From Acidobacteriota bacterium (GTDB taxonomy: Bacteria > Acidobacteriota > Thermoanaerobaculia > Multivoradales > J023): a DNA stretch of 64,000 bases. The stretch covers positions 375-64,374 of the forward strand of contig JAJCXR010000035.1 of NCBI GenBank assembly GCA_029263315.1, read 5' to 3'. Below are positions 31,601 to 46,630 of the stretch, one piece after another. The number at the start of each line of letters is the position of its first letter. Within the stretch, counting starts at the first letter, position 1. The notes under the pieces are model-generated. The model saw only the letters and a program-made list of their open reading frames with translations, had not been told where the DNA came from and did no database searches. Position numbers and translations under genes: made by a program.

Positions 31601-31826
31601 GGGGTTGTCCTTTATTCCTTTCAGCCGCGCCATGATAACCCCCGCAGGCCCAATCTCGGAGCTCAAGGGCGGGGTATCGGAGGCTCCGAATCCCGCCTGG
31701 CAGGCTGCTGGGGGTGGGCGACCCTAGGACGTGGCCTGTGCTAATGTGGTTACCTTGTGCTCAGTAGGCTCGGTCCGGTCGCTGACGCGTCGTGGCCGGG
31801 CACCGGCTTGATGGGGAAGAATCTCA

Positions 31827-33173
31827 GTGTCCCAGCCGCCAGTGTCCACATCCAAGCCTGACCGCTCGGGTCGAGGCTCGTCCCTCGGTCGTCGCCTGCG
31901 GGCTTCCGACCAAACATCCTATGACGTAGCGACCGAGCGTCTGTCGACCCCGGATCAACTGGATCAGGTGATCCGGGTGGCGCGCTTTCCCCACTGGTTG
32001 GCCCTGTCGGCCCTGTTCTTGGTCTTGGCCGCCGCCGTTGCCGGCAGTATTCTGGTGCCGGTCCCGGTGACGGTGCGAGGTCAAGGCATCTTGATCAATG
32101 CCGAAGGCATTCTCAGTGTCACCTCCGATACGGAAGGCCGATTGTTGGGGCTTGATGTCGAGCCGGGGCGTTTGGTGCAAGAAGGCGAGCTGGTGGCACG
32201 CATCGATCAACCCCAGCTGCGCCAGGATTTGCTCAACCGTCAGGCGGAGCTGACCGAGCTGCGCCGTCGCCGCGACACCATCGAGGCCTTCCATCAGCGT
32301 ACCTCGACGACCCAACTGCAGACCATCGCCGACCGTCGGCGGGCCCTCGAGCAACGGCAAACCTTTGCCGAAGAGGATGCCCGTTTGATGCGGGAGCAAC
32401 TGCGGGACGAGGTCATGCTGCAAGGCCAGGGCATCCTCTCGGCGCGCCAGATCACCGAGTCCCGGCGCCGGGTCAACGAGGCGGAGCAGGAGCTGACCGC
32501 CATCGACAACGAGCTGCGGTTTTTCAGCCAGATGATGGCCGAGAACGAGTTGAAGCAGGAACGGGAGCTGCTCGATATCAGCCTCGAAATCAGCGATCTC
32601 GAGCGTATCGTCGACAGTCTCGACGAGCGGTACCGTCGCCACAGTGAGGTCAAGAGCCCCTACTCCGGACGGGTGGTGGAGCTCAGCGTCAACGAGGGCG
32701 AGATCGTCGGTCGCAACGCTGCTTTGTTCTCCCTCTTGCCCACCGGCGACGCGGCATCCCCCGGCTCCGATCAGCTCATCGCCGTGATCTACGTGCCACC
32801 CTCGGACGGCAAAAAAGTGTTGCAGGGCATGGATGTGCAACTCGAGCTGACACCGGTCAAACGGGAGGAGTTCGGTTTTATGCTGGGGCGGGTGGCGTCG
32901 GTGGCGGAGGTACCTTCGACCACCGACGGCATGATGCGAATCCTCAAGAACCGGCAGTTGGTCGATCAATTGTCGGGAACCCAAGCCCCCTTTGAGGTGC
33001 GGGTCGCCTTGCGCCGCGATGCGTCGACCCATACCGGTTTTAAATGGTCGTCCTCGGCGGGGCCGCAGGTGGAGATCAATATCGGAACCCTCTGTGTCGG
33101 TGATGTGATCACCCAACGGGAACGACCGATCAACCTGCTGATCCCAGCCCTGGGGCGTTTTTTCGATGACTGA
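31827..33173 (+). CDS. NHLM-type bacteriocin secretion membrane fusion protein (HlyD family)
   Basis: ERLSTPDQLDQVIRV, V.GQGIL, coiled coil, SPYSGRVVE, VKREEFGFMLGRV, GFKWSSSAGP, PINLLIP. Confidence 0.9.
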   Translation: MSQPPVSTSKPDRSGRGSSLGRRLRASDQTSYDVATERLSTPDQLDQVIRVARFPHWLALSALFLVLAAAVAGSILVPVPVTVRGQGILINAEGILSVTSDTEGRLLGLDVEPGRLVQEGELVARIDQPQLRQDLLNRQAELTELRRRRDTIEAFHQRTSTTQLQTIADRRRALEQRQTFAEEDARLMREQLRDEVMLQGQGILSARQITESRRRVNEAEQELTAIDNELRFFSQMMAENELKQERELLDISLEISDLERIVDSLDERYRRHSEVKSPYSGRVVELSVNEGEIVGRNAALFSLLPTGDAASPGSDQLIAVIYVPPSDGKKVLQGMDVQLELTPVKREEFGFMLGRVASVAEVPSTTDGMMRILKNRQLVDQLSGTQAPFEVRVALRRDASTHTGFKWSSSAGPQVEINIGTLCVGDVITQRERPINLLIPALGRFFDD

Positions 33174-35592
33174 GACGGCGCTCAAGGACATCGAAGGGCG
33201 ACCTTGGCGCCGGACATTGCGGGGCCTTTGGCAGGGTTGGCATGAGCACCTGCGGGGCTGGCGGAGCTGGGGTCCGTGGAACCGTCGGCGTCGCCGCACG
33301 CCCACCCTGCTGCAAATGCAGGAGACGGAATGTGGCGCCGCTTGCCTGGGGATCATCCTCGGTTATTACGGCCGCCATGAGCCCTTGGAAACGCTGCGCT
33401 ACGAGTGCGGGGTCACCCGCGACGGCGCCAAGGCGAGCAATGTTCTGCGGGCGGCTCGGGGTTACGGTTTGACCGCCAAGGGTTTTGCCCTCAATGCCAT
33501 GCAGGTGAGCCGTGCCCCTCTGCCCCTGGTATCCCTGTGGAATTTCACCCATTTTGTGGTGGTCGAAGGTTTCGTCGGCGGCAAGGTCTACCTCAATGAC
33601 CCCGCCACCGGGCCGCGCACCGTCTCGGAGCAGCGCTTCGTCGAGGGATACTCGGGGGTCTCCCTGGCCTTTCTTCCCGGCTCCGGATTCACCACCAACC
33701 GGCGGCCTCCGGGGGCCATGGCCAGCCTGCTGGAACGCACCCGCAGCTCGCGCCGGGCCTATGCCTTCATCATCCTGGCGAGCCTGATCTTCTTTTTGCC
33801 GGGCCTCATGATGCCGGCCTTTTTGCGCATTTACGTCGACTACTTCCTGGTCCAAGGGCAAGACCGCTGGCTGACCTTCATCCTTGCATCGATGCTGGCG
33901 ACGGCCCTCTTCACGGGGGTCCTGGTGTGGTTGCTCGACAACAGCCTGATCCGTTTCTACACCAAGCTCCAAACCCTGTGGTCGAGCCGCATGGTGTGGC
34001 GCATCCTGCGGCTGCCCCTGAGCTATTTCGACCAGCGCTCCGGTGGCGATTTGAGCACCCGTATCCAGTCCAATGGCATGCTGGCGTGGTTGGTGGCCGG
34101 GGAGCTGTCGAGCACCTTCCTCGGCCTGGCGACGCTGCTCGTCTATGCCCTCATCATGTGGCAATACGATGTCCTGCTGACCCTCATCGGGATGGGCTTC
34201 GCGGCGGTCAACTTGATCGCCTTCTGGATCGTCTCTCGCCGCCTCGAGGACATCAACCAGCAACTGCACCGCGATCGAGGCAAGACGGCGGGCATCTTGA
34301 TGCAAGGTCTGCGCTCCATCGATTCCTACCAAGCCAACGGCACCGAGGCGGTGTTTTTCAATCGCTGGGCCGGGCACCAGGCCAAGGTGGCCAACGCCCG
34401 CCAGTCCCTGGGCAAGACCCGCGCTCTGTTGACGGCCATTCCACTCTTGCTGGCCATGGTCAGCACCACCGCCATCCTCTTGGTGGGTGGCTTGCGCATC
34501 ATGGACGGCGCCCTGACGATCGGCATGTTGGTGGCCTTTCAAGGGCTGATGGTGGCGTTTTCGTTGCCGGTCAAGCAGGTCATCGACGCCAGCGCCAAGA
34601 TCCAAGAAGCCCAGGGCCTGTTGTATCGCCTCGACGATGTCATGCGGCAGAGTATCGACGCCGAGTTTGAGCAAGAAGAGACAACCCTGGAGCTGATGGG
34701 TCGCCAGCAGGGCGCCGCCGCCGTCGACGAGGGCTCGATGGAGGAGGCTCGCCGGCAGGAATCGGCGTTCGAGTCCGATTCCCTTACCACCGACTTCGCA
34801 TCCGAGGGGTTGTCCCCGGGCCGACACTCCGCCGAGCTGATGGTCCCGCGGCTACGGACCGCCAAACGCCGCAAGCTCGGTGGTGGGCTGGAGATGCGGC
34901 AGATTTGCTTCGGTTTCAATCCCCTGGACCCCCCTTGGATCGACGGCTTCGACCTCTCGGTGGCGCCCGGGGGGTGGGTCGCCTTGGTGGGCCCTTCGGG
35001 CAGCGGCAAGTCGACGTTGGGGCGCATGATCGCCGGCGTTGTCCGACCCTGGTCCGGGGATATCTGGATCGATGGCCAGAAGCTGGTGGAGATTCCGCGT
35101 CAGGTGCTGCGCAACACGGTGGCGGTGGTGGACCAAAACATCTCTCTCTTCGAAGGCACGGTGGCCGAGAACATCGCCATGTGGGATGCCACACTGCCGG
35201 AGGCGCGCATGGTCGAGGCGGCCCGCGACGCCGGGCTGCACGACGAGATCGCCGCCCGTCCGGGGGGTTACCGGGAGCTCATCGAAGAGGGTGGGCGCAA
35301 CTTTTCTGGCGGCGAGCGACAACGCATCGAAATCGCTCGGGCCCTGGTGGCCGAACCCTCTATCTTGTTGCTCGACGAAGCCACTAGCGCCCTCGATGCG
35401 CGGACGGAAAACGGCATCATTCGCAACTTGCGACGGCGGGGCCAGACCTGCGTGCTCATCGCCCATCGCTTGAGCACCATCCGCGATTGTGACGAGATCA
35501 TCGTCCTCGATGCCGGGCAAGTCGTCGAACGGGGCGACCATCGGACACTGATGGAACGCGACGGTGCCTATCGCAAGCTGGTGCATTCATGA
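33166..35592 (+). CDS. NHLM-type peptidase-containing ABC transporter (C39 + TMD + NBD)
   Basis: TPTLLQMQETECGAACL (catalytic Cys), WNFTHFVV (His), YLNDPA (Asp), GPSGSGKST, FSGGERQR, LLLDEATSALD. Confidence 0.93.
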   Translation: MTETALKDIEGRPWRRTLRGLWQGWHEHLRGWRSWGPWNRRRRRTPTLLQMQETECGAACLGIILGYYGRHEPLETLRYECGVTRDGAKASNVLRAARGYGLTAKGFALNAMQVSRAPLPLVSLWNFTHFVVVEGFVGGKVYLNDPATGPRTVSEQRFVEGYSGVSLAFLPGSGFTTNRRPPGAMASLLERTRSSRRAYAFIILASLIFFLPGLMMPAFLRIYVDYFLVQGQDRWLTFILASMLATALFTGVLVWLLDNSLIRFYTKLQTLWSSRMVWRILRLPLSYFDQRSGGDLSTRIQSNGMLAWLVAGELSSTFLGLATLLVYALIMWQYDVLLTLIGMGFAAVNLIAFWIVSRRLEDINQQLHRDRGKTAGILMQGLRSIDSYQANGTEAVFFNRWAGHQAKVANARQSLGKTRALLTAIPLLLAMVSTTAILLVGGLRIMDGALTIGMLVAFQGLMVAFSLPVKQVIDASAKIQEAQGLLYRLDDVMRQSIDAEFEQEETTLELMGRQQGAAAVDEGSMEEARRQESAFESDSLTTDFASEGLSPGRHSAELMVPRLRTAKRRKLGGGLEMRQICFGFNPLDPPWIDGFDLSVAPGGWVALVGPSGSGKSTLGRMIAGVVRPWSGDIWIDGQKLVEIPRQVLRNTVAVVDQNISLFEGTVAENIAMWDATLPEARMVEAARDAGLHDEIAARPGGYRELIEEGGRNFSGGERQRIEIARALVAEPSILLLDEATSALDARTENGIIRNLRRRGQTCVLIAHRLSTIRDCDEIIVLDAGQVVERGDHRTLMERDGAYRKLVHS

Positions 35593-38492
35593 CCTCACCG
35601 GGGAGCAAAGACGCGGCGGCCTCCGCCGTCGGCGGGCCAGAGCCGACCGCCGGCCTCACCGGGGCCACGCCGTTGCGGTTGCCACCGGGGGGTGCTTGTC
35701 GTCTGCAGCAGGGGAAGGTGGACCTCTATGCCGAGTTGCTCGACGGCGACGGCGCCATCCTGCGGCGTGAGCAACTCTTCGACCTCGATGCCGGAGCCCT
35801 GCTCTATGACTTGCCGACCTTGCCGGGTCTGCGCTGGATCGTCCTCGGACGGGGCCCGACACAACTCCAGCCGGTGGCGGTGGCGACCTTGACCCCGAGC
35901 CAAGTGCAGCCGTGGTTGGCGGGGCTGTGCGGCGTCCTGGAACGGACCTTCCGGGGTGTCGGCTTGATGCAACACCACCTCTCCGCCGGCGGTGCGCCCT
36001 TCGAGGCCGCTGCGGGGGAGCACGTCAGCTCCTCGGCGGGCATCACCTGGGCCCGTTTCGAAGGCTCGCCGCTGAGGTACCTCGATGACCTGGCGCTGGT
36101 GCCCGGTGGCGGCTCGGTTTACTTCCCGCTCAGCCCGGGGACTTGGCTGACCCCGACGGCCACCGTCGAGGTCGAACCCCTGGCTTTGGACGAGCCCCGT
36201 TTGGTCACCGCCTTGCCACAGGCCATGGAGCACTTTCATCGGGTCGTCGTGGAGTTGGTGAAGGAATCATGGGTCGCTGCCTTTCAGCAGGAGCAGCATC
36301 GATTGAGCCGTCGGCAACATTTGACTCAACGGGAGCGGCTCGCCGTCTTGTCACGCTTCAGTACGGTCATCGACGGCGGCGGTGAGTGGGACCTCGACGC
36401 CGGTGCCTCACCCCTGGTGCGGGTGTGCCAGCACATCGGTCGCCAGCTCGGGGTACAAGTGCGCCCCCCCGCCTTGTCGCCGGATAGGCGTCAGGGGGTG
36501 GCGGCGCAAGTGGAGGCGATCAGCCGTCGGTCGCGTCTACGGGCCAGGCAGGTGGTCTTGCGGGACGGCTGGTGGCGACGGGAAATGCGTCCCATGCTGG
36601 CCTTTCGGCGCGACTCCGGCAAGCCGGTGGCCTTGCTTCCCTGGCGGGGAGGACAAGCGGTTTGGGATCCGGCCAAGGCGGTTTGCATGGCCGACCAAGG
36701 GGGGCAGCGGCTGCGTAAAATCGATGCTGGCCAAGCCCAGGATATTGCGCCCCTCGCCTACTCTTTCTTCCGTGTCTTGCCCGATCGTCCCTTGCGCACC
36801 GCCGATCTGCTGGCCTTCGCCATGCGCTTCTGTCGACGAGACCTGGCGATGGCCTTGCTGTGCAGCCTGTGCGGTGTGGCGATGGCCCTCTTGGTGCCCA
36901 TCGCCACCGGCTGGATCGTCGACATCACCATCCCGGGGCACCAAACCTCGCAGCTGTTTTCCATCGCCCTGGCGTTGCTCATCGCCACCTTCGCCATTTT
37001 CAGCCTCAAGATCTGCGAAGACATCGCCCTGCTGCGTTTTGAGGGTCGCCTGGCAGAAACCCTACAGCCGGCCATCCTCGATCGTTTGTTGCGCCTGCCG
37101 AACACCTTCTTCCGGCGCTACTCCGCCGGCGATCTGGCGGAGCGGGTGCAGGCCATCGAGACGGTGGAGACCCGTCTCTCGGAGGGCTTGATGTCTTCCC
37201 TGCTCTCGGGTTGTCTGTCGTTGATCAACTTTGCCCTGCTGGTCTACATCTCGCCCAAGGCGGCCATGGTGGCGGCGTTGTTGTTGTTGGTTTTGATGAT
37301 TGGGTTTCTGCTGACGGCCCATCGTCAAAAGGCTTTCTGGCTGCGCATCCACCGCCTCGAGGGGCGGCTGGCGAGCATGATCTTGCAGATGATGCACGGT
37401 ATGCAGCGGGTGCGTTTGGCGGGTTCGGAAGATCGCATGTTCGTACGTTGGGGCAACCTGTCGATGAAGTTCCGCGATGTTCTCAATGCTTGCTACAACA
37501 GCGAGATGCTCTTCGGCGTCTTCAGCAAGAGTTTTCAAGTGCTGTGCTTCGCCATCCTCTTTGCGGTGATGGCTCCGATTGCTCGGGAGGGGTTGTCGAC
37601 GGGGCGTTTCCTCGCCTTCATCGCCGCCTTCACCATGGTGCTCACCGGTTTGGCCGAAATGGCCAGGGTGGTGATCAGCTCGATGGAGGTGGTGCCCGCC
37701 TTCGAACGTCTGCATCCCCTCTTGGACAGTGTTCCCGAGAGTGAAATGGAGCGGGCCCATCCCGGCGTGCTCAGCGGTCGTTTGGAGGTGCACCAGCTGA
37801 CCTTTCGCTATGGTGAGGGCATGCCTTGGGTCTTGCAGGGGTTGTGTTTGCAGGCCCGGGCGGGTGAGAGCATCGCCATCGTCGGTCCATCGGGATGCGG
37901 CAAATCGACCCTGTTGCGGCTCATCCTGGGTTTTGAGCATGCCACCGCCGGTAGTATCTACTTTGACGGCAAGGACGTGGCGGGTCTCGACTTGCGAGAG
38001 GTACGGCACCAGATCGGTGTGGTGTTGCAGAATGACCAATTGATGGAGGCCAGTCTCTTCCAGAACATTCGAGGCGACAAGGACATCTCCATGGACGAGG
38101 CTTGGCGGGCCGCCGAGATGTCGGGGATCGCCGACGACATCCGGGCCATGCCCTTGGGTATGCACACCGTCGTGTCCGCCCGGGGCGCCGACCTCTCCGG
38201 AGGTCAAGTGCAGCGTCTGCTCATCGCCCGCGCCCTGGCCTCCCGCCCCCGTATCCTGCTGCTCGACGAAGCCACCAGCGCCTTGGACAACTTGACCCAG
38301 TCCTTGGTCACCGACAGTCTCGATCATCTGCGGGTCACCCGCATCACCATCGCCCATCGCTTGAGCACCGTCCGCAAGGCGGACCGTATCTTTGTCATTC
38401 GACGGGGCCAGGTGGTGGAAGAAGGGACCTACCAGAGCCTCATGGACAAGCCGGCGTTCTTCGCTGAGTTGGTGCAACGGCAGCTCCACTGA
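35589..38492 (+). CDS. NHLM-type ABC transporter ATP-binding/permease subunit (no peptidase)
   Basis: Long N-terminal region, WWRREMRPMLAF, GKPVALLP, TMD, GPSGCGKST, LSGGQVQR, LDEATSALD. Confidence 0.9.
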   Translation: MTSPGSKDAAASAVGGPEPTAGLTGATPLRLPPGGACRLQQGKVDLYAELLDGDGAILRREQLFDLDAGALLYDLPTLPGLRWIVLGRGPTQLQPVAVATLTPSQVQPWLAGLCGVLERTFRGVGLMQHHLSAGGAPFEAAAGEHVSSSAGITWARFEGSPLRYLDDLALVPGGGSVYFPLSPGTWLTPTATVEVEPLALDEPRLVTALPQAMEHFHRVVVELVKESWVAAFQQEQHRLSRRQHLTQRERLAVLSRFSTVIDGGGEWDLDAGASPLVRVCQHIGRQLGVQVRPPALSPDRRQGVAAQVEAISRRSRLRARQVVLRDGWWRREMRPMLAFRRDSGKPVALLPWRGGQAVWDPAKAVCMADQGGQRLRKIDAGQAQDIAPLAYSFFRVLPDRPLRTADLLAFAMRFCRRDLAMALLCSLCGVAMALLVPIATGWIVDITIPGHQTSQLFSIALALLIATFAIFSLKICEDIALLRFEGRLAETLQPAILDRLLRLPNTFFRRYSAGDLAERVQAIETVETRLSEGLMSSLLSGCLSLINFALLVYISPKAAMVAALLLLVLMIGFLLTAHRQKAFWLRIHRLEGRLASMILQMMHGMQRVRLAGSEDRMFVRWGNLSMKFRDVLNACYNSEMLFGVFSKSFQVLCFAILFAVMAPIAREGLSTGRFLAFIAAFTMVLTGLAEMARVVISSMEVVPAFERLHPLLDSVPESEMERAHPGVLSGRLEVHQLTFRYGEGMPWVLQGLCLQARAGESIAIVGPSGCGKSTLLRLILGFEHATAGSIYFDGKDVAGLDLREVRHQIGVVLQNDQLMEASLFQNIRGDKDISMDEAWRAAEMSGIADDIRAMPLGMHTVVSARGADLSGGQVQRLLIARALASRPRILLLDEATSALDNLTQSLVTDSLDHLRVTRITIAHRLSTVRKADRIFVIRRGQVVEEGTYQSLMDKPAFFAELVQRQLH

Positions 38493-38513
38493 GGGTTGGC
38501 ACGAGGAGTCGAT

Positions 38514-39059
38514 ATGCAGAAGGTTCTCTACATCTTGGGTCAGCTCAACGACGCCGATGTCGAGTGGCTGAGCGACGAAGGGGAGCGGCGCAAGTACGTG
38601 CAAGGGGCCCACTTGATCGAGCAAGGGGTGGCCAACGACGACCTCTTCATCGTCCTGCAAGGTTTCGTCTCGGTGGTGGTGGATGGCCTGGGGGAGCTCC
38701 ATGTGCTCGGCAGTGGTGAAATCCTGGGGGAGATGTCATTGGTGGATTCGCGGCCCCCCTCGGCGACGGTGATCGCCCAGGGGGATGTCTATGTGTTGTC
38801 CTTATCCTTCACCACGTTGCGTCGGCAGGTGGAAACGGACCACGGCTTCGGCATGCGCTTTTACCGGGCCCTGGCGACTTTCCTGTCGCAGCGTCTACGC
38901 AACGAAAGGACGCCGGACTTCAACCGCGAGATCGGTCTTTTGGCGGATCAGGAACAGGACGGTGAGCTCGACGCCTATGTGCTCGACAATCTACAAGTTG
39001 CCGGTGCCCGTTTCGATCGTCTGCTCAAGAAGATGATGAGCGGCTCGGTCGACGGTTGA
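38514..39059 (+). CDS. Cyclic nucleotide-binding domain protein, bacteriocin-system type
   Basis: MQKVLYILGQLNDADVEWL, GEILGEMSLVDSRPPSATV, FYRALATFLSQRLR, AGARFDRLL. Confidence 0.88.
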   Translation: MQKVLYILGQLNDADVEWLSDEGERRKYVQGAHLIEQGVANDDLFIVLQGFVSVVVDGLGELHVLGSGEILGEMSLVDSRPPSATVIAQGDVYVLSLSFTTLRRQVETDHGFGMRFYRALATFLSQRLRNERTPDFNREIGLLADQEQDGELDAYVLDNLQVAGARFDRLLKKMMSGSVDG

Positions 39060-39079
39060 AGCCTGAGGAGGACGCTGAC

Positions 39080-40120
39080 ATGCGATATCTGAAGCTGGCT
39101 GGAGGCATCTTGCTCTGCGCCATGGCCACAAGCGGTAACCTGTGGGCGGCGCAGTGGCAGGAGCTCGGCATCGACGCCACCTCCACCTATGCCCAGTGGT
39201 ACCGTCCCGATACGGTGCCCGCCGAGGAAGCGGCCCCTTTGGTGATTTTCTTGCACGGCGCCGGGTCGACACCGGAAGCTTGGATGCCGCTGTTGCAGGA
39301 CCATGCCGAGACGGCGGGTTTTGTCCTGGCGCTGCCCAAGTCGATCTCCGACTTTGGTTGGGGGGTGGGTCGAGATCACGAGACGCTGCGTCATCTCATC
39401 GCGGAGCTGTCCCAGGAGACTTCCATCGAGCGCCGTCGGGTGAGCTTGGCGGGGCATTCCTCCGGCGGCGCTTTCGCCTACGTGGCAGCCCTCGGCGGAC
39501 GGTTGCGCATCGCTTCGGTCTTTGCCCTCGCGGCGCCGTTTCGCACCGTCCTCGAAGTGGCCGATACCACCCACACGCCAACCCTCCGCCTGTACTACGG
39601 CACCGAAGATCCGAACTATCGGATTCTGCCACCCCTCGGGGACATGCTCGATCGTCTGGCCGTGACCTGGCAGGTCGAGATAGCTCCCGGCTTCGGTCAT
39701 AGCTCGTGGCCGGCCACCACCTTGGGCGATGGCTTCCACTTCCTGCTGCAGTACGAGCTGACCGGGCCCTGTGAGCCCTCGCCGCATCGACTGTGCTTGC
39801 TGGACGGGCGCTTTGCGGTGGAGCTATCGTGGTCGGACCATCAGGGCAACCATGGGGTCGGCTCGAGGGTCGAGCAGCAGACCACCGACTCCGGCTTGCT
39901 TTGGTTTTTTGGCCAGGCCAACTGGGAGTTGCTGGTGAAGGTGCTCGACGGCTGCGGCGTCAATGGCCATTATTGGGTCTTCGCCGCCGCCGCCACCGAC
40001 GTGGAGTACGAGTTGCGGGTCACCGATCTGGCCACCGGTCTCGAAGCGAGCTACCTCAATTCTTTGGGGCAAGCCGCGTCGGCGGTCAATGACACGGGGG
40101 CGTTTGCTAGCTGTCCGTGA
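39080..40120 (+). CDS. Secreted alpha/beta hydrolase with Acidobacteria-type C-terminal domain
   Basis: Signal peptide, LVIFLHGAG, GHSSGG nucleophile elbow, YYGTED, GFGH; C-terminus LCLLDGRF...LWFF...ELLVKVLDGC...WVFAAAATDVEY...AFASCP. Confidence 0.8.
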   Translation: MRYLKLAGGILLCAMATSGNLWAAQWQELGIDATSTYAQWYRPDTVPAEEAAPLVIFLHGAGSTPEAWMPLLQDHAETAGFVLALPKSISDFGWGVGRDHETLRHLIAELSQETSIERRRVSLAGHSSGGAFAYVAALGGRLRIASVFALAAPFRTVLEVADTTHTPTLRLYYGTEDPNYRILPPLGDMLDRLAVTWQVEIAPGFGHSSWPATTLGDGFHFLLQYELTGPCEPSPHRLCLLDGRFAVELSWSDHQGNHGVGSRVEQQTTDSGLLWFFGQANWELLVKVLDGCGVNGHYWVFAAAATDVEYELRVTDLATGLEASYLNSLGQAASAVNDTGAFASCP

Positions 40121-40305
40121 TTTGAAGCCGTCGTCAAAGACTGGGACTCCGAATCCGGGGCCTGGCAGTCGCGATACATTTCGGCAGTGGAGACACATCG
40201 TCGCCAATTTGGCACTGTCGAGCTCCCGACGCCGCGTTGTAGGGCAGGACGTTTTGACCTGGCGGGACGTCCATGTCGGCGATCTGGTCGCCGTGGGAGG
40301 TCTCC

Positions 40306-41565
40306 ATGCAAGACAACTGGCAACCCCTCTTACAGGGGGACATGGCGGAGGACGCTTGGCGGGCGATCCGCGCCATCGCGGCGGATCTTGGGCCACCGGA
40401 CCGGGCCTTTGCGGACAATGCGCGCTGGGGTTTGGCCGGCGGAGCCGCCGGCACGGCGTTGTTCTTTGCCTATTTGGCCGAGGTCAGTGAGGACTCGCAG
40501 CATCGGGATTTGGCCTGTGAGCATCTGGAAACGGCCCTCGACGGGGCTGGCCAGGCCCAAGCCTTCGGGCTCTGGGACGGCCTGTTGGGGGTGTCCTGGG
40601 TTTTTGACCACTTGGCCGGTCGTCTCTTCGAGGTGGAGGACGACGAAGATGGGAGCGATATCGACCGTGCCTTGACCAATCTTCTGCAAAGCGCTCCACA
40701 GTATGAGAATTACGACTTGATCCAAGGTCTGGCCGGTTTTGGCGTCGCTTGCCTGGAGGGGCTCCCCCGTCCGGGGGCTCGCCAGGCCTTGGACTTGGTG
40801 CTCGACCATCTGGTGGGTGGCCAACTGCAACTCGACGGCGGCGTCACCTGGCTCACGCCGCCGGATTTGTTGCCACCCTGGCAGCGGCAGCTGGCGCCGG
40901 AGGGTTACTACAACCTCGGCGTAGCCCATGGCGTGGCGGCGGTCCTGACCCTTCTCGCCCGCTGTGTCCAGGCATCGATCCGCCGCCAAGAGCTTCTGCC
41001 GCTGCTCGATGAGCTGGTGCAGTGGATCCTGGCACAGCGCTCGGAGTTGGGATTCCCCAGCTGGATTCCCAAAGATCGGCCGGTCGTCGAAGGGGCTCGG
41101 CTGGCCTGGTGCTACGGTGATCCGGGGGTCGCCGCGGCCCTCCTGGCGGCGGCCCAAGCCACCGGTCGTCACAGCTGGGCGGCGATGGCCGAGGAGGTGG
41201 CACACCAGGCCGCCGGTCGCGATCCGGCCCTGGCCCGAGTCCAGGACGCCGGACTGTGCCATGGCTCCGCCGGAGTGGCTCATCTTTTCCATCGCCTCTA
41301 CCGGGGCACCGGCAATGCCGACCTGGCGGAGGCTGCCCGACATTGGTTCCTCCACACTTTGGAGATGCGGCGTCCGGGGGCGGGTTTTGGAGGATTCCAA
41401 GCCTGGACGCTGCCACGGGGGCAACTCGAGGGCGAGTTGCAATGGGTTGACGATCCCGGCCTGCTCACCGGCTCGGCGGGGATCGGCCTCAGCTTGCTGG
41501 CGGCGGTGACCTCGCAGGAGCCACGCTGGGACCGCGCCCTGATGGTGTCGACATCGGCCCCCTAG
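40306..41565 (+). CDS. lanC: Class I lanthipeptide cyclase
   Basis: GLAGGAAG, YDLIQGLAG, YNLGVAHG, AWCYGDPG, GLCHGSAG, GLLTGSAG; GGAGG RBS. Confidence 0.95.
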   Translation: MQDNWQPLLQGDMAEDAWRAIRAIAADLGPPDRAFADNARWGLAGGAAGTALFFAYLAEVSEDSQHRDLACEHLETALDGAGQAQAFGLWDGLLGVSWVFDHLAGRLFEVEDDEDGSDIDRALTNLLQSAPQYENYDLIQGLAGFGVACLEGLPRPGARQALDLVLDHLVGGQLQLDGGVTWLTPPDLLPPWQRQLAPEGYYNLGVAHGVAAVLTLLARCVQASIRRQELLPLLDELVQWILAQRSELGFPSWIPKDRPVVEGARLAWCYGDPGVAAALLAAAQATGRHSWAAMAEEVAHQAAGRDPALARVQDAGLCHGSAGVAHLFHRLYRGTGNADLAEAARHWFLHTLEMRRPGAGFGGFQAWTLPRGQLEGELQWVDDPGLLTGSAGIGLSLLAAVTSQEPRWDRALMVSTSAP

Positions 41566-41834: not shown

Positions 41835-44800
41835 CTAGGCTAGCCGTTCGGCCCGCTGCCGAGCCCGCTGGGACAGCCGGTGGCGGTGCAAGAAGTCGTA
41901 GAGCACCGCTTCGTGGGCCCTGGCGTTGGCTGGAATCAAGCGGTTGACGGTCATGTGGGCCAAGCTAGACCCCAAGCTACCTAGCGGTATGGCCAGCTGC
42001 CGCGATTGAGCCAGGGCTCGCAGGGCCGCCATCGGTTGTTTCAAGTGGTGATCGCGTTGCCGTAGGACGAGCAAGGACGTTTCCAGGGGTGACAAGCTCG
42101 CCGCCTTGGCCTGTGTTGTTGGCTGGCGGACCGTGTCGAGCTTCCGCAGAGCGGCGCTGATCAGTTGTTTGTGCTGGCGTAGCTTCTGCGCCATGCCTCG
42201 GCGCATGCGTTTGTCGATCCCCATCTCGTCGGCGAAACCCTGGCGCATGGTGTCGATGCAGGCGATGTGGGAGGCCAGGTCGTCGGCGAAGAGCCCGGCC
42301 AGCAGCCCGTTGAGGCTCGCCAAGGTGGCCAGCCAACGATGGGTGGCGCCAACATCCCCCCGCAAGACGGGCAGCATGGCGAGCACGGCGACGCTGTCGT
42401 GGTGGAAGATCTGCTCACAGAGGTCGAGCCCGGGCCGGCCCCCATAGCGTTCGATTTCCGGCTCGTAGGTGGCGAGCTGTAGATTCCAAATGCAGCCTTG
42501 ATCGAGGAGCCGCGTCGCCAGGGCGGACAAACGTTGTTGGAGATCCCAGCGCAAGCCCTCGTCGGGCACTTGGAAGCGCACCCGGAGGTGGAATTCGGGA
42601 TCGCTATAACGAATGAAAAACCAGCGACGGATCTCCTGCCCATAGTTTTGCACCAGTTGGCGGATGGGACCTTGCAGGATGTCGTCGGCGGTGGTCGAGC
42701 CGGTGTAGAGCTTGGCGAAAAGCCACTGGGAGCCTGGCAAATATTTTTCGCCGAGGTCTTGCCCCGTCAAGGGACCCCCGGTGAGAATGGAGGAGCTGCC
42801 GACGGCCAGGGGGCTGCTCTGCGCCCCGGCTTCGACCTCGGGGGCCGGCCGCGGCCGACGACGGACCAAGGGCAGGATGAGCTCGTGGGCATAGCGTCCT
42901 TCAGGCCCTTGCAGCACCAAATTGTTACCCTGTTGGAGGAATTCCAGGAGACGAAAGCTGCGACGCCGTTGCACGATACTGAGGAGAGCCTCCACCGACA
43001 GGCGGTGGTCGAAGTCGACAAACAGCTCGTTGTCGCCGTCGGCCAGCAGCACGCGACGGGGAAGCTCCCGCTCCTGACACCAGCGGTCCAGGGCCGGTTG
43101 CCGTCGGTGGCTTTCAAGAGTCGCCCAAGGACGGATCTCCTCTCCGCTCACCACCCACTCCGCCGGCCTCAAGATGGTGCGACCATACACTACCCTCGGC
43201 AGCTGGGAGAGTTGGTCGAGGGGTCCCCAGGACCAAGCCAAGCCGCCGCAAACCCCCTGGGATTGCAGCGAGCAGAGAAAGCGATAGATACCTAGGCCAC
43301 GCAGGGAGAAATTATGGGCGCTGGTGAGGCGGGGGATGACCCGTTTGCCGAGCCGTTGGGACCACAGGATCACCTCGTCGCCGACGACGCTGACCCGAAG
43401 ATCGTCGAGTGGGATTTGATGCTCCTGCGGGCAGCCGCTGTGGCCGAGGAACGGGATCTCATATCTGCGCAACACCGGGCGCAGCAGAATGTTGCCGATG
43501 CGACCTTCCGGCAAGTGCACGATTTCGGCGTAAACGGCGTCGGGCCGGTGCGCCTCCTCCCGTTGCAGATGGGCCCGCACGTGCTCTGCCAAGGCGGCGT
43601 CGGCGTGGCAGAAGCGACCCAACAACGCCGCCCCCGACGGGCCGCTGGCCCCCTTGAGCAACAACTGGAACTGACCTTGGTCGACGGCCTCGGAGGACGA
43701 CGCGAGCAGAGTGCAGATGATCTGCATGGCGTCCGGCAGCGGCTTCAACGGAATGTCGTCCAGGCGATCCAGATCATCGTCCGTCAGTCGCAGCACCTTC
43801 TCTCCCCGACGGGCGCCGGTGAAGAGCTTCTGGGTGATTAGCCCTTGGGCCTGACCCCAGGGGACCTCCCGGTTGCCCGGGCGGGACGGAAAGTGGATGC
43901 CTTGGAGCAGTGGAGCGTCGTGACTGCCCAGGCCAGCTGTGGGGGAGAAACCGATGCCCACTTCTTCGTCGAGCGCTTCCACCAGGGGCACCGCACGGCC
44001 CGGTTCATAACGTCGCCTGAAGGCCTCGCGAAAACTGGCGAAAGGGTCGAAAATGGTGTCCCCCCGCAGTCTATGCAGACAGGCCACCGCCGCCATCGCC
44101 TCCTCCACGACCTGGGAGTTGAGCTGTAGATCCGGAGCCGGCTTGCCAGCGTCGACCTGGAAAAGGCGAGGCAAGGCGATCTCCGGCCCCAAGGGCTCGA
44201 GCTGGCGTCCCAGGCGACGATAGACCTGGCCGACTTCGACGATCGAGCTTCGAGAATCCTGCTGTTTCCCCTTCGCGGGCGTCAGATCCAGCCGCCTCAA
44301 GGCATCCCGAATCTCGGCCAAGCCAGCGGCGATGGGCGCCGTTTTTGGAATGGGGGCGAGATGCTCGATGAAGTCGTGCACCGGCTCGGTTCCGGTGACC
44401 CCGGGGCCCAGATTGGAGACCAGAAGTTGAGTGTCCACCATTTCATGGACGAGCTCCATGGCTTCGTCGAGGCTGATCGCTTCGACGTCCGTAGGTTGCT
44501 CGGCATCGTTCGCCGGCTGCTGACGATGTTGTTGATCGAAATCGACGATGCAGCGGGCGATGTCGAGCACGGTGGCGCCCCCCCGCGCCGCCCGCAACGC
44601 CGCCGAAAGGTAGGGATCATCGCCCACCGCCACCAGATGGTACGACCGCTGCTGACCGTCGAGACGGCCTTCCGCATAACGCCAACGGCCGGCGGTGAAG
44701 TAGAGGCTGCTGTTGGGGGAATAGCGGAGGGCGGCCCGCACCTCCGGATCCGTCTCGAGGTGGTGGGCCAAGCGGAAGAGGTAGTCCATGTCGAGGCGCG

Positions 44801-45242
44801 TATGACGACGGTTGGCGTGACGGGGGGCAAGCTTTAGGTGGGTGCCATTGCCTAGCCGCCCCAGGGAGCCCCCGGCGAACAGGCCAAACGGCGTGGAGCG
44901 GGTCATCATGCGTACGACGTAGCGGGCCAGGGAGCTGCGCAGCCGCGCCGCCCGCTTGGCCGGCGTCGAAGCATCGAGATGCCCTAAACCTTCGATCAAT
45001 GACGGCGAGGCCACGAACAGAGCTTCGGCGATTTCCGGCCGTTGCGCCATTGCGAAGAGATGATCTTCCGATGGGTCAGTTCCTGTGTCGGACGAGGCTG
45101 CCTGGGCGTCGAGCCATGCTAGATGCTCGTCGAAGGGCAGGAGGGGAGAGCGCAGGACGAAGAAGTCTTCCGCCCGGTGATGCGGAAGGCTGCGCCTGGG
45201 GACGGTTCGGGTGGGTGCGTTGGTGGTGTCGATTGTCATCAC
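41835..45242 (-). CDS. lanB: Class I lanthipeptide dehydratase, full length (glutamylation + elimination domains)
   Basis: FFVLRSPLLPF, IAEALFVASPSL, RSTPFGLFAG, LGRF, PRLTSAHN, WLFAKLY, WFFIRYSDPEFHLRVRF, YEPEIERYGG, HMTVNRL; 1135 aa. Confidence 0.95.
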   Translation of the reverse strand: MMTIDTTNAPTRTVPRRSLPHHRAEDFFVLRSPLLPFDEHLAWLDAQAASSDTGTDPSEDHLFAMAQRPEIAEALFVASPSLIEGLGHLDASTPAKRAARLRSSLARYVVRMMTRSTPFGLFAGGSLGRLGNGTHLKLAPRHANRRHTRLDMDYLFRLAHHLETDPEVRAALRYSPNSSLYFTAGRWRYAEGRLDGQQRSYHLVAVGDDPYLSAALRAARGGATVLDIARCIVDFDQQHRQQPANDAEQPTDVEAISLDEAMELVHEMVDTQLLVSNLGPGVTGTEPVHDFIEHLAPIPKTAPIAAGLAEIRDALRRLDLTPAKGKQQDSRSSIVEVGQVYRRLGRQLEPLGPEIALPRLFQVDAGKPAPDLQLNSQVVEEAMAAVACLHRLRGDTIFDPFASFREAFRRRYEPGRAVPLVEALDEEVGIGFSPTAGLGSHDAPLLQGIHFPSRPGNREVPWGQAQGLITQKLFTGARRGEKVLRLTDDDLDRLDDIPLKPLPDAMQIICTLLASSSEAVDQGQFQLLLKGASGPSGAALLGRFCHADAALAEHVRAHLQREEAHRPDAVYAEIVHLPEGRIGNILLRPVLRRYEIPFLGHSGCPQEHQIPLDDLRVSVVGDEVILWSQRLGKRVIPRLTSAHNFSLRGLGIYRFLCSLQSQGVCGGLAWSWGPLDQLSQLPRVVYGRTILRPAEWVVSGEEIRPWATLESHRRQPALDRWCQERELPRRVLLADGDNELFVDFDHRLSVEALLSIVQRRRSFRLLEFLQQGNNLVLQGPEGRYAHELILPLVRRRPRPAPEVEAGAQSSPLAVGSSSILTGGPLTGQDLGEKYLPGSQWLFAKLYTGSTTADDILQGPIRQLVQNYGQEIRRWFFIRYSDPEFHLRVRFQVPDEGLRWDLQQRLSALATRLLDQGCIWNLQLATYEPEIERYGGRPGLDLCEQIFHHDSVAVLAMLPVLRGDVGATHRWLATLASLNGLLAGLFADDLASHIACIDTMRQGFADEMGIDKRMRRGMAQKLRQHKQLISAALRKLDTVRQPTTQAKAASLSPLETSLLVLRQRDHHLKQPMAALRALAQSRQLAIPLGSLGSSLAHMTVNRLIPANARAHEAVLYDFLHRHRLSQRARQRAERLA

Positions 45243-45505
45243 ACCCTACAACGCGGAGAAATGTGCCGCGCAGTGCCGTTTTTGTGGGGTTGTTTTAGCC
45301 ATCGCAGGTACTTTCGCAGGCAGCCCTATCGGCGGTCTTCGTCGGCGAGGTGGGTGCGGCTGGCATCTGAGTCCGGGGGGCGATGGCACCTTCTGCGAGA
45401 TCCGTGCGCGTTGATAGATGACAGGGCTTCCCTAGAGGCCCGCTGCACTCTCTCCCATCGAAGGGAGACATCTTGAATGGAGACACCGGAAGACATGGAG
45501 GGGCC

Positions 45506-45697
45506 ATGAAGAAAACCTTGCGTCGATTGCGCTTGGAACGTGAAACGCTCCGCAACCTCACCCCCGAGCACTTGGGACAAGTCGTCGGCGGCACTGGGGG
45601 GACTATCGATGACACCGACACCCGTCACAACTCTTGCAACTTGGCCGAATCCAAGCCTATTTCCGTTTGCCAGAGCTGCCTCCCCTTTGTTTGCTAA
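45506..45697 (+). CDS. lanA: Lanthipeptide precursor 1 (29-aa GG leader, 34-aa core)
   Basis: MKKTLRRLRLERETLRNLTPEHLGQVVGG|TGGTIDDTDTRHNSCNLAESKPISVCQSCLPFVC; GGAG RBS; adjacent to lanB. Confidence 0.9.
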   Translation: MKKTLRRLRLERETLRNLTPEHLGQVVGGTGGTIDDTDTRHNSCNLAESKPISVCQSCLPFVC

Positions 45698-45757
45698 GCC
45701 CTGGTCCCCGTGAGACGTTAGCGTGAGGTTCGAAACGACCGAAACTAGGAAAACACC

Positions 45758-45943
45758 ATGAAGAAAACACTACGCCGTTTGCGTTTGGAGCGTGAGACGC
45801 TTCGCAACTTGACACCGCAGGATCTGGAGCAGGTGGTCGGTGGCAATCCCTTGGACGATGGCGATACGCGCTACAACTCCTGTGATCTGGCGATCACACG
45901 GCCACGCTTGGTGTGCTGCAGCCTCTTGCCCCTTGGCTGCTAG
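45758..45943 (+). CDS. lanA: Lanthipeptide precursor 2 (29-aa GG leader, 32-aa core)
   Basis: MKKTLRRLRLERETLRNLTPQDLEQVVGG|NPLDDGDTRYNSCDLAITRPRLVCCSLLPLGC. Confidence 0.9.
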   Translation: MKKTLRRLRLERETLRNLTPQDLEQVVGGNPLDDGDTRYNSCDLAITRPRLVCCSLLPLGC

Positions 45944-46012
45944 TCGCTGAAGCCGACAGCCCTGCGGCAGGGATGGCGTGGAGATGTCGTCCCTGCCGTC
46001 GGCTGGGGTTCT

Positions 46013-46630
46013 TCAGCCCAGCTCGCGCACCAGAAAGGCCCGCGCCAAAGCCCAATCGCGGGCCACGGTGCGACGGGAGCAACCGATGGCCAAGGCCGTT
46101 TCATCGAGGGTCAAGCCGGCGAAGCAATGCAAATGCACCACCAAGGCGAGCCGCGGCTCATGCTCTGAGAGTCGTCCCAGGGCCAGTTGCAGCCCCATGG
46201 GGTCCATGTCCTCTTTGAGGGCCGCCGGTAACTGATCGAGGAACTCGTAACGCACCACCTCCGCCTTGCGACGATCCGCCATCTTGGTGCGGGCGTGGTC
46301 GAGCAGGATGCGCCGCATGGTGACGGCGGCAATGGCGAAGAAATGTTTACGATTGCGCCAATTGACGTGCCGCTGGGCGCGCAGCCGCAAGTACGCCTCG
46401 TGCACCAAGGCGCGGGGCTCCAACGTGTGGTCCGTACGTTCGTTGCGCAGGTAGCCCCGAGCCTGTTGGTTGAGCTCCCGGTAGACAAGCTCGAGCAATT
46501 GGTTTTCCTCGAGATGGGAGCTGCCTTTCCAAGATTGCAGGAGATGGGTGATCTCACCCCGCTCCTCTTGGCTCAGGGGACAGGCCGGGTGATGGGGTGC
46601 GGAGGCGTAGGCTGGAGGCTCGATCTGCAT
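46013..46630 (-). CDS. ECF sigma factor, STK-associated (TIGR02999-like)
   Basis: LVYREL...YLRNERTDHTLEPRALVHEAYLRL, NRKHFFAIAAVTMRRILLDHAR, RTVARDWALARAFL. Confidence 0.92.
   Translation of the reverse strand: MQIEPPAYASAPHHPACPLSQEERGEITHLLQSWKGSSHLEENQLLELVYRELNQQARGYLRNERTDHTLEPRALVHEAYLRLRAQRHVNWRNRKHFFAIAAVTMRRILLDHARTKMADRRKAEVVRYEFLDQLPAALKEDMDPMGLQLALGRLSEHEPRLALVVHLHCFAGLTLDETALAIGCSRRTVARDWALARAFLVRELG

What the first reader, a model, noticed from the sequence alone, without database searches (positions are those of the whole stretch)
45506..45844. Leader carries both a class I LxLxKx5L-type motif and a textbook double-glycine C39 site
Seen: the first 20 leader residues are identical in the two precursors. 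LRLERETLRNL is LxLxRx5L, a K-to-R variant of the pinensin-type class I leader motif. It is followed by L(-12)xxxxL(-7)xxV(-4)xGG, the hydrophobic pattern recognised by C39 PCAT peptidases. Inference: one 29-aa leader serves both LanB and the NHLM peptidase, much shorter than the NHLP/Nif11 leaders such cassettes usually handle.
Basis: partly seen in the sequence, partly recalled or inferred. Interest (0 to 1): 0.65.

Follow-up and report, generated by a model that had tools for sequence, protein, structure and literature searches.

The report
Known two-part lanthipeptide leader peptide
Two small neighbouring genes encode precursors of a ring-containing peptide (class I lanthipeptide) whose 29-residue leader combines an enzyme-docking box with a Gly-Gly cleavage/export signal; this leader type is already described and curated, so this is an ordinary new example, in an Acidobacteria genome with an unusual exporter.

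Summary
lanA1 (45506-45697) and lanA2 (45758-45943) share an identical 20-residue N-terminus. It contains LRLERETLRNL (LxLxRx5L). Then come L(-12), L(-7), V(-4) and G(-2)G(-1).

Both precursors match NCBIfam NF038153 (lant_leader_L1a) above its cut-off. The model spans the box through the Gly-Gly. Walker et al. 2020 (PMC7268733) already reported class I LanAs with LxLxKx5L leaders that end in Gly-Gly and sit in clusters with C39 proteases. Ped15 peptides and viridisins are characterised examples.

My comparative tests fit the two-part reading:
- The box is present whenever this LanB clade is present.
- The Gly-Gly tail has come and gone at least 6 times.
- C39 transporters are found only next to Gly-Gly-type leaders, though this is not significant after phylogenetic correction.
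- R is commoner than K at the motif position (34 vs 26).

The host is an Acidobacteriota genome. The one atypical point is the exporter, a true three-gene NHLM cassette. In a 401-genome phylum sample, 12 other LanB genes have a simpler PCAT nearby and none has this cassette. The genome has no NHLP or Nif11 precursor. C39 recognition needs only about the last 13 leader residues, so a short leader is not mechanistically surprising.

Verdict: a new member of a known kind, of low interest.

The parts
45506..45697 (+). lanA1, class I lanthipeptide precursor (63 aa): leader 1-29, core 30-63 with 4 Cys and 8 Ser/Thr
   Evidence: NF038153 23.8 bits. GGAGG lies 6 nt before the ATG (read directly from the sequence).
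45527..45559 (+). Box LRLERETLRNL (residues 8-18; LxLxRx5L), the proposed LanB-docking element
   Evidence: Invariant in 12 homologues. Present in box-only and box+GG leaders next to LanB relatives. All 16 genomes of the phylum sample with the leader have LanB.
45548..45592 (+). Double-glycine cleavage/export element, residues 15-29 (L-15, L-12, L-7, V-4, G-2 G-1). It overlaps the box at L15-L18.
   Evidence: Read directly from the sequence. Register conserved in 44 relatives. C39 recognition of positions -4/-7/-12 is from PMC10885120.
45758..45943 (+). lanA2, second precursor (61 aa); leader = 45758-45844
   Evidence: NF038153 23.0 bits.
41835..45242 (-). lanB, full-length dehydratase (1135 aa), divergent from lanA1
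   Evidence: PF04738 541.8 bits and PF14028 200 bits. Homologous to MibB 5ehk (E 2e-50) and NisB.
40273..41565 (+). lanC, cyclase (430 aa)
   Evidence: PF05147 147.8 bits.
33166..35592 (+). C39 peptidase-ABC transporter (PCAT, NHLM ABC1). The C39 domain is about residues 46-171 (33301-33678).
   Evidence: TIGR03796 924.8 bits against a cut-off of 853.3. PF03412 103 bits. The C39 domain matches LahT147 (6mpz) at E 1e-34, with the ECGAAC, HFVV and NDP motifs kept.
35589..38492 (+). NHLM ABC2 (permease/ATPase without a peptidase; extra 273-aa N-terminus)
   Evidence: TIGR03797 777.1 bits against a cut-off of 709.4. The N-terminus has no Pfam hit.
31827..33173 (+). NHLM HlyD-type periplasmic adaptor
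   Evidence: TIGR03794 321.1 bits against a cut-off of 156.2.
38496..39059 (+). cNMP-binding protein, in the export operon
   Evidence: PF00027 59.4 bits. Conserved in L003.
39056..40120 (+). alpha/beta hydrolase, role unknown; a possible second trimming enzyme
   Evidence: Abhydrolase_2/6. Conserved in L003.
45385..45413 (+). Promoter-like motif GGCAC-N17-CGCGTTG upstream of lanA1. Sister copies lie at 45249-45277 (-) before lanB and 40211-40239 (+) before lanC.
   Evidence: Three copies in the window against 0.06 expected. Same positions in L003, L004 and L005.
45946..46017 (.). Strong hairpin after the lanA2 stop, between lanA2 and the convergent ECF sigma gene
   Evidence: -51.7 kcal/mol, z -6.25.
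46013..46630 (-). ECF sigma factor (PF07638); with the Ser/Thr kinase-TPR gene 46554-49376 (-) it is the candidate regulator
   Evidence: Conserved next to lanA in L003 and L005.

Best explanation
lanA1 and lanA2 are precursors of a class I lanthipeptide. They carry the already described 'L1a' leader, which has an LxLx[K/R]ETLxxL box followed at fixed spacing by a double-glycine helix.

Proposed course:
1. The N-terminal box (residues about 5-18) docks the unmodified precursor on the full-length LanB. LanB dehydrates Ser/Thr in the core, and LanC closes thioether rings with the four Cys.
2. The C39 domain of the PCAT (NHLM ABC1) then binds L(-12), L(-7) and V(-4) and cuts after G28-G29.
3. ABC1/ABC2 with the HlyD adaptor export the 32-34-residue product across the Gram-negative envelope.

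L15 and L18 belong to both elements, so the two proteins probably bind one after the other rather than together.

Shown here: the motifs, family membership, purifying selection, an intact C39 catalytic set, and the co-occurrence patterns. Inferred: physical binding, the order of events, and the exact cleavage site.
For: Membership: NF038153 is over its cut-off for both peptides, aligned from residue 1 to the Gly-Gly.

Cluster: LanB, LanC, PCAT, ABC2 and HlyD are all over curated cut-offs.

Literature:
- Walker 2020 (PMC7268733) describes LxLxKx5L leaders ending in Gly-Gly, with C39 proteases in the clusters.
- VdsCB still modified VdsA after the Gly-Gly motif and the two residues before it were replaced by a NisP site (PMC9680876).
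- LahT150 was used for leader cleavage of PedA15.2 (PMC12328550).

Box linked to LanB:
- Leaders next to 33 LanB relatives from 7 phyla all keep the box, including 12 loci whose leaders have no Gly-Gly.
- In 401 Acidobacteriota genomes, 16 of 16 with the leader have LanB, against 44 of 401 overall (p 3e-17).

Gly-Gly linked to C39:
- A C39 domain lies within 10 kb in 10 of 21 Gly-Gly-type loci and 0 of 12 box-only loci (Fisher p 0.005).
- On the LanB tree the Gly-Gly tail changes at least 6 times, and C39 never goes the opposite way.

C39 competence: the best solved match is LahT147 (E 1e-34), with catalytic Cys, His and Asp conserved.

No rival substrate: the genome has no NHLP or Nif11 leader.

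Selection: 11 synonymous-only codon differences and 0 residue changes in leader codons 1-20.
Against: - There is no direct evidence of binding or cleavage.
- With phylogenetically independent contrasts the Gly-Gly/C39 link is only directional: 3-4 of 6 the same way, none opposite, p 0.125-0.25.
- Eleven Gly-Gly-type loci show no C39 within 10 kb.
- L15 and L18 are also classical C39 recognition positions. Part of the 'LanB box' could therefore be transporter signal, as Haft et al. argued for NHLP leaders (PMC2887384).
- The export operon lacks the GGCAC-N17-CGCGTTG motif that precedes lanA, lanB and lanC, so co-regulation is not shown.
- The AlphaFold2 model of LanA1 is uninformative (pLDDT 50).
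Confidence: 0.72

Rival explanations
1. The whole 22-residue conserved unit, from L(-22) to G(-1), is mainly an export/cleavage signal read by the PCAT. LanB recognises something else: the core, or only a few box residues.
For: - L(-15) and L(-12) lie inside the box and are known C39 contact positions (ComA: -15, -12, -7, -4; PMC10885120).
- The box and the Gly-Gly keep a fixed register in 44 relatives.
- Haft et al. concluded that leader conservation in NHLP families tracks the transporter more than the modifying enzymes (PMC2887384).
Against: - Twelve LanB loci (Myxococcaceae, Gemmatimonadota, some Acidobacteriota) keep the box but have neither Gly-Gly nor C39.
- The leader family occurs only in LanB-bearing genomes (16 of 16).
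- Viridisin precursors whose Gly-Gly motif was replaced were still modified (PMC9680876).
Confidence: 0.15
2. The leader is removed, wholly or in a second step, by another enzyme. The candidate is the conserved alpha/beta hydrolase in the operon (39056-40120). The Gly-Gly site would then be only the first cut, or unused. lanA1 also has a second Gly-Gly (T30-G31-G32).
For: - The hydrolase is translationally coupled in the export operon and conserved in the syntenic relative L003.
- Stepwise leader trimming is known in other lanthipeptide classes (PMC10885120).
- LanA1-type cores start TGGT.
Against: - The only invariant Gly-Gly in the family is G28-G29.
- The hydrolase's best hits are esterase/PHB-depolymerase-like families, not peptidase families.
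- The C39 domain is intact and LahT-like.
Confidence: 0.1
3. The NHLM cassette is merely a neighbour that serves other substrates. The LanAs are exported and cleaved by one of the genome's other C39-ABC transporters.
For: - The genome holds three further full-length C39-ABC genes (C53, C21, C30).
- The lan promoter motif is absent before the cassette.
- In the phylum sample, LanB genes normally pair with a different, sub-cut-off PCAT clade.
Against: - The cassette, cNMP protein and hydrolase run with overlapping stops and starts up to 153 nt before lanC.
- The same layout is kept in L003.
- A bona fide cassette also sits beside L1a-type LanAs in Kouleothrix (L107).
- No NHLP or Nif11 substrate exists in the genome.
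Confidence: 0.08

Closest known systems
NCBIfam NF038153 'lant_leader_L1a' / class I LanAs with LxLxKx5L leaders ending in Gly-Gly (Walker et al. 2020, BMC Genomics, PMC7268733)
   Same: Same box, same Gly-Gly end, separate LanB and LanC, and a C39 protease in the cluster. Both window peptides score over the curated cut-off.
   Different: That group was described for Bacteroidetes; here the host is Acidobacteriota. R replaces K at the motif position, but that is the majority state outside Bacteroidetes.
Ped15.1/15.2 (Pedobacter lusitanus), thalassomonasins and viridisins (Thalassomonas): characterised class I lanthipeptides with double-glycine leaders
   Same: Several precursors with a conserved Gly-Gly leader next to LanB and LanC, in Gram-negative hosts. 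Modification is directed by the leader (PMC9680876). LahT150 was used for leader cleavage of PedA15.2 (PMC12328550).
   Different: Different phyla and unrelated core peptides. Those papers do not describe a three-gene NHLM cassette. I could not compare the leader sequences themselves, because they are printed only in figures and PMC9845027 is not held.
Pinensin cluster (Chitinophaga pinensis; Mohr et al. 2015)
   Same: Founding member of the LxLxKx5L-leader group of class I lanthipeptides, per Walker 2020.
   Different: Pinensin uses a split LanB (PinB1/PinB2). The window has a single 1135-aa LanB.
NHLP / Nif11-leader RiPP systems with the TIGR03794/03796/03797 export cassette (Haft et al. 2010, PMC2887384), including prochlorosins
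   Same: The same three-gene cassette, all three proteins over the equivalog cut-offs. The same roughly 13-residue Gly-Gly 'motif 2' logic.
   Different: The leader is 29 aa and has no NHLP or Nif11 domain (no hit; none in the whole genome). The modifying enzymes are LanB/LanC rather than YcaO or LanM.
LahT/LahA (Lachnospiraceae PCAT; structure 6mpz, Bobeica et al. 2019)
   Same: It is the closest solved C39 domain (E 1e-34). It recognises hydrophobic residues at -4, -7 and -12 plus Gly-Gly, exactly the pattern present here.
   Different: LahT belongs to a class II (LanM) cluster in a Gram-positive bacterium and works as a single-gene PCAT.

Membership tests
NCBIfam NF038153 lant_leader_L1a (class I lanthipeptide leader) | HMM score over the curated cut-off (22 bits) across the full model | tested here: met
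   23.8 and 23.0 bits; residues 1-29 align to model positions 1-32 of 32. The margin over the cut-off is small.
NCBIfam NF038153 lant_leader_L1a (class I lanthipeptide leader) | Encoded beside separate LanB and LanC genes, with a Cys- and Ser/Thr-containing core | tested here: met
   LanB lies 264 nt away, divergent; LanC is next to LanB. The cores have 4 Cys each.
Double-glycine (C39/PCAT-processed) leader | Gly-Gly (or Gly-Ala/Ser) at -2/-1, with hydrophobic residues at -4, -7 and -12 | tested here: met
   V26, L23, L18, G28G29 in both peptides. These are invariant in 12 homologues.
Double-glycine (C39/PCAT-processed) leader | A cognate C39 peptidase domain with catalytic Cys, His and Asp | tested here: met
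   PF03412 103 bits. The alignment to LahT147 keeps ECGAAC, HFVV and NDP.
Double-glycine (C39/PCAT-processed) leader | Actual cleavage after Gly-Gly by that peptidase | not testable with these tools
   Needs an in vitro or in vivo assay.
Pinensin-type cluster | Leader motif LxLxKx5L with Lys | tested here: not met
   R12 stands in place of K. Among 63 relatives R occurs 34 times and K 26 times, so Lys is not essential to the wider family.
Pinensin-type cluster | [quoted passage not shown] | tested here: not met
   A single 1135-aa ORF carries both PF04738 and PF14028.
NHLP / Nif11 leader families (TIGR03793, TIGR03798) | HMM match of the leader | tested here: not met
   Neither family appears at E <= 0.1 for either peptide. 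The best hits in the whole genome are 14.8 and 14.1 bits, against cut-offs of 50.9 and 32.3.
NHLM three-gene export cassette (TIGR03794, TIGR03796, TIGR03797) | All three proteins over the equivalog cut-offs and adjacent | tested here: met
   321.1/156.2, 924.8/853.3 and 777.1/709.4 bits (score/cut-off); consecutive overlapping genes at 31827-38492.
Class I lanthipeptide system | LanB dehydratase (PF04738 + PF14028) and LanC cyclase (PF05147) | tested here: met
   LanB is homologous to MibB and NisB structures.

The most novel reading that the evidence does not exclude
LanB docking and C39 cleavage use overlapping residues (L15, L18) of one short leader, which would enforce an ordered hand-off from dehydratase/cyclase to exporter. 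In this Acidobacteriota lineage that leader has been re-coupled from the usual dedicated LanT-type PCAT to a true NHLM ABC1/ABC2/HlyD/cNMP cassette. In sister genomes of the same order and phylum, the same leader heads 11-19 precursor genes scattered across the genome, served by a single LanB. That would be a class I counterpart of the prochlorosin 'one enzyme, many substrates' libraries.
Probability: 0.3. Interest if true: 0.45.

Novelty: new member of a known kind. Interest (0 to 1): 0.2.

Why it matters
There is little new biology in the leader itself. The box-plus-Gly-Gly leader is published, curated and experimentally used.

The locus is useful in three ways:
- It is a clean, intact Acidobacteriota example with two new core peptides.
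- It shows that a true NHLM cassette can be paired with a 29-residue leader. This supports the view that these exporters read only the Gly-Gly-proximal helix.
- Its relatives form a natural series of box-only and box-plus-Gly-Gly leaders, in which the two leader functions could be separated experimentally.

Tried and rejected
- The first genome-contig scan, with LanB as a single protein, found nothing. An alignment of three LanBs worked.
- The AlphaFold2 model of LanA1 with a 12-sequence alignment has mean pLDDT 50, pTM 0.15 and only a 4-residue helix. It says nothing about leader structure. No complex prediction is possible with the tools.
- Bothwell et al. 2021 (PMC9845027) is not held, so Ped15 leader processing is cited only through reviews.
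- I tested whether the many L1a-type leaders away from LanB in G176, G232 and G266 belong to other RiPP enzymes. Their neighbours are unrelated genes (patatin, metallo-beta-lactamase, MurB, RpoC, CHAD, a NACHT-FGE protein). I rejected that idea in favour of service in trans by the single LanB.
- I considered a sigma-54 reading of the conserved TGGCAC upstream of lanA1. I rejected it because the GG-to-GC spacing is wrong and is not conserved among the four loci. The conserved pair is GGCAC-N17-CGCGTTG.
- NG86 dN/dS could not be computed because dS is saturated. I report codon counts instead.
- The phylogenetically corrected test of Gly-Gly against C39 lacks power: only 6 contrasts.

Full report
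**Observation**

The region holds two tandem small genes on the + strand: lanA1 (45506-45697, 63 aa) and lanA2 (45758-45943, 61 aa). The leaders are MKKTLRRLRLERETLRNLTPEHLGQVVGG and MKKTLRRLRLERETLRNLTPQDLEQVVGG. Residues 1-20 are identical. L8-x-L10-x-R12-x5-L18 is present. Counting back from G29: L18 = -12, L23 = -7, V26 = -4, and G28G29 = -2/-1.

The identity is not a recent duplication. In codons 1-20, 11 codons differ only synonymously and none changes the residue. The DNA upstream of the two start codons is unrelated. Twelve further metagenomic homologues keep R6 R7 L8 R9 L10 R12 E13 T14 L18 T19 P20 L23 V26 G28 G29 invariant, while the cores vary.

**Surroundings**

- lanB (41835-45242, -, full length, PF04738 + PF14028) is divergent from lanA1.
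- lanC (40273-41565, +) is convergent with lanB.
- Upstream of lanC runs a chain of overlapping + strand genes: HlyD adaptor (31827-33173), C39-ABC transporter (33166-35592), a second ABC (35589-38492), a cNMP-binding protein (38496-39059) and an alpha/beta hydrolase (39056-40120).
- The three transport proteins pass the equivalog cut-offs of the NHLM cassette: TIGR03794 at 321, TIGR03796 at 925 and TIGR03797 at 777 bits.
- Downstream of lanA2 lie a strong hairpin and a convergent ECF sigma factor with a Ser/Thr kinase-TPR gene.
- A metagenomic relative (L003) has the same gene order, with three precursors.

**Organism**

RpoA from the window is 71-72% identical to that of four Acidobacteriota MAGs labelled Thermoanaerobaculaceae, Holophagales or uncultured Acidobacteriota. 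It is 55% identical or less to the other nine genomes tested, including Blastocatellia and Holophagaceae and members of five other phyla. The genome is about 8 Mb and 92% complete.

**What the leader is**

Both peptides match NCBIfam NF038153, 'lant_leader_L1a: class I lanthipeptide', above its curated cut-off. The match runs from residue 1 to the Gly-Gly. One curated model thus already covers the box and the Gly-Gly together.

- Walker et al. [quoted passage not shown] They add that many of these leaders end in Gly-Gly and that a C39 protease is often encoded in the cluster.
- Characterised examples with double-glycine class I leaders are Ped15.1/15.2, the thalassomonasins and the viridisins (PMC9680876).
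- In the viridisin work the Gly-Gly motif and the two residues before it were replaced by a NisP site, and the synthetase still modified the peptide.
- LahT150 was used for leader cleavage of PedA15.2 (PMC12328550).

The finding therefore restates a known leader type.

**Tests of the two-part reading**

I fetched 80 loci around LanB relatives (40-46% identity). They come from Acidobacteriota, Myxococcota, Gemmatimonadota, Planctomycetota, Chloroflexota, Bacillota and Pseudomonadota. I searched them with a leader HMM built here. Leaders were found in 33 loci.

All of them keep the box, but they fall into two kinds:
- box plus Gly-Gly (or Gly-Ala / Ala-Gly) at fixed spacing;
- box only (Myxococcaceae, Gemmatimonadota, some Acidobacteriota).

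By my reading, a C39 domain lies within 10 kb in 10 of 21 Gly-Gly-type loci and in 0 of 12 box-only loci (Fisher p 0.005). An automatic classification gave 9 of 17 against 1 of 16 (p 0.007).

On a LanB tree the Gly-Gly tail changes state at least 6 times. In 6 phylogenetically independent contrasts C39 went the same way in 3-4, never the opposite way, and did not differ in the rest (sign test p 0.125-0.25). The link is consistent in direction but not significant once relatedness is allowed for.

At genome level, all 16 genomes of a 401-genome Acidobacteriota sample with NF038153 over the cut-off also have LanB. Overall, 44 of 401 genomes have LanB (p 3e-17).

In the Gly-Gly-type relatives the register is fixed: L-22, L-20, K/R-18, E-17, T-16, L-15, L-12, L/M-7, V-4, G-2, G-1. 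The two 'motifs' therefore overlap at L-15 and L-12. At the 'K' position R occurs 34 times and K 26 times in 63 leaders, so the K-to-R change is the norm in this clade.

**The peptidase**

The window's C39 domain is most similar to LahT147 (6mpz, E 1e-34). The catalytic Cys (ECGAAC), His (HFVV) and Asp (NDP) are conserved. LahT reads hydrophobic residues at -4, -7 and -12 and fails on leaders that lack them (PMC10885120). The window leaders have exactly that pattern.

**The NHLM question**

- The genome has no NHLP or Nif11 leader. The best hits are 14.8 and 14.1 bits, against cut-offs of 50.9 and 32.3. The LanAs are therefore the obvious substrates.
- The genome has a second bona fide cassette on contig C53. 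It sits next to an outer-membrane efflux protein, a LanM, a LanC-like gene and a 94-aa precursor with a 49-residue Gly-Gly leader.
- Among the ten of the sixteen C39-bearing loci whose PCAT I scored, only one (Kouleothrix, L107; 1111 bits) is a bona fide TIGR03796. The other nine score 618-668 bits.
- In the phylum sample, 22 genomes have a bona fide TIGR03796, but only the window's lies beside LanB. Twelve LanB genes have a sub-cut-off PCAT within about 5 kb.
- The exporter is therefore atypical for this LanB clade.
- Haft et al. already noted that NHLP, Nif11 and classical bacteriocin leaders share the 13-residue stretch before Gly-Gly (PMC2887384). A short leader is thus compatible with this cassette.

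**Mechanism**

The box docks on LanB, which dehydrates the core. LanC cyclises it. The C39 domain then binds the L-12/L-7/V-4 helix and cuts after G29. ABC1/ABC2/HlyD export the product. Because L15 and L18 are shared, binding is probably sequential.

Shown here: the motifs, family membership, selection on the leader, an intact C39 domain and the co-occurrence patterns. Inferred: binding, the order of events and the cleavage site.

**Rivals**

- The box may be mostly transporter signal.
- A second enzyme, such as the operon's hydrolase, may trim the leader.
- The cassette may only be a neighbour.

Each is less well supported; the rival entries give the evidence.

**Verdict**

The locus is a new member of a known kind, and the exporter swap is its only unusual feature. 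Interest is low.

**What led nowhere**

- The AlphaFold2 model of LanA1 was uninformative.
- One key paper (PMC9845027) is not held.

Noticed in passing
window 40211-40239 (+), 45249-45277 (-), 45385-45413 (+); also L003, L004, L005: The bipartite motif GGCAC-N17-CGCGTTG occurs exactly three times in the 64-kb window (0.06 expected), directly upstream of lanC, lanB and lanA1. It holds the same positions in three related loci. Its architecture resembles an ECF-type promoter, and an ECF sigma factor plus a Ser/Thr kinase-TPR gene sit next to lanA in the window, L003 and L005. There is no copy before the export operon.
   Followed up: partly
G176, G232, G266 (loci L120-L129, L131): Related Acidobacteriota genomes carry 11-19 L1a-type precursor genes with Cys-rich, highly variable cores. 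These are scattered next to unrelated genes, and each genome has only one full-length LanB of this clade. This looks like a prochlorosin-style one-enzyme-many-substrates layout for class I lanthipeptides.
   Followed up: partly
own genome contig C53, about 131-150 kb (L118:5632-18808, L119:102-7616): This is a second bona fide NHLM cassette (HlyD, ABC1 at 1082 bits, ABC2). An outer-membrane efflux protein gene precedes it. After it come a zinc-ribbon/AAA/TPR protein, a LanC-like gene, a 94-aa precursor with a 49-residue Gly-Gly leader, a LanM, a JmjC-type oxygenase and a DUF7005 protein.
   Followed up: partly
L089, L095, L099, L104, L105 (Myxococcaceae/Archangiaceae); L082, L093 (Gemmatimonadota): LanB/LanC loci whose precursors keep the LxLx[K/R]ETVRxL box but have no Gly-Gly and no C39 transporter nearby. 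L093 has six such precursors in tandem. Their leader protease is unknown.
   Followed up: no
window 45946-46017: A very stable hairpin (-51.7 kcal/mol, z -6.25) lies right after the lanA2 stop. It abuts the stop of the convergent ECF sigma gene and is probably a bidirectional terminator.
   Followed up: partly
window 35589-36410: The ABC2 protein has a 273-residue N-terminal extension ahead of the TIGR03797 match, with no Pfam hit. The second cassette's ABC2 is similarly long (1005 aa).
   Followed up: no
window 45593-45604: The LanA1-type cores start TGGT, which gives a second Gly-Gly three residues after the conserved one. LanA2-type cores start NPLDD instead. Either a second cut or simply core variation is possible.
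   Followed up: no
L005:5050-8057: In this low-coverage ENA contig, the LanB next to a close LanA1 homologue is called as three separate ORFs, and no transporter lies beside it. This is either assembly frameshifts or a decaying cluster.
   Followed up: no
window 30476-31666 (-): A TPR plus thioredoxin-like (AhpC/TSA, redoxin) protein is encoded divergently just upstream of the HlyD gene. A role in handling the Cys-rich peptide is conceivable but untested.
   Followed up: no
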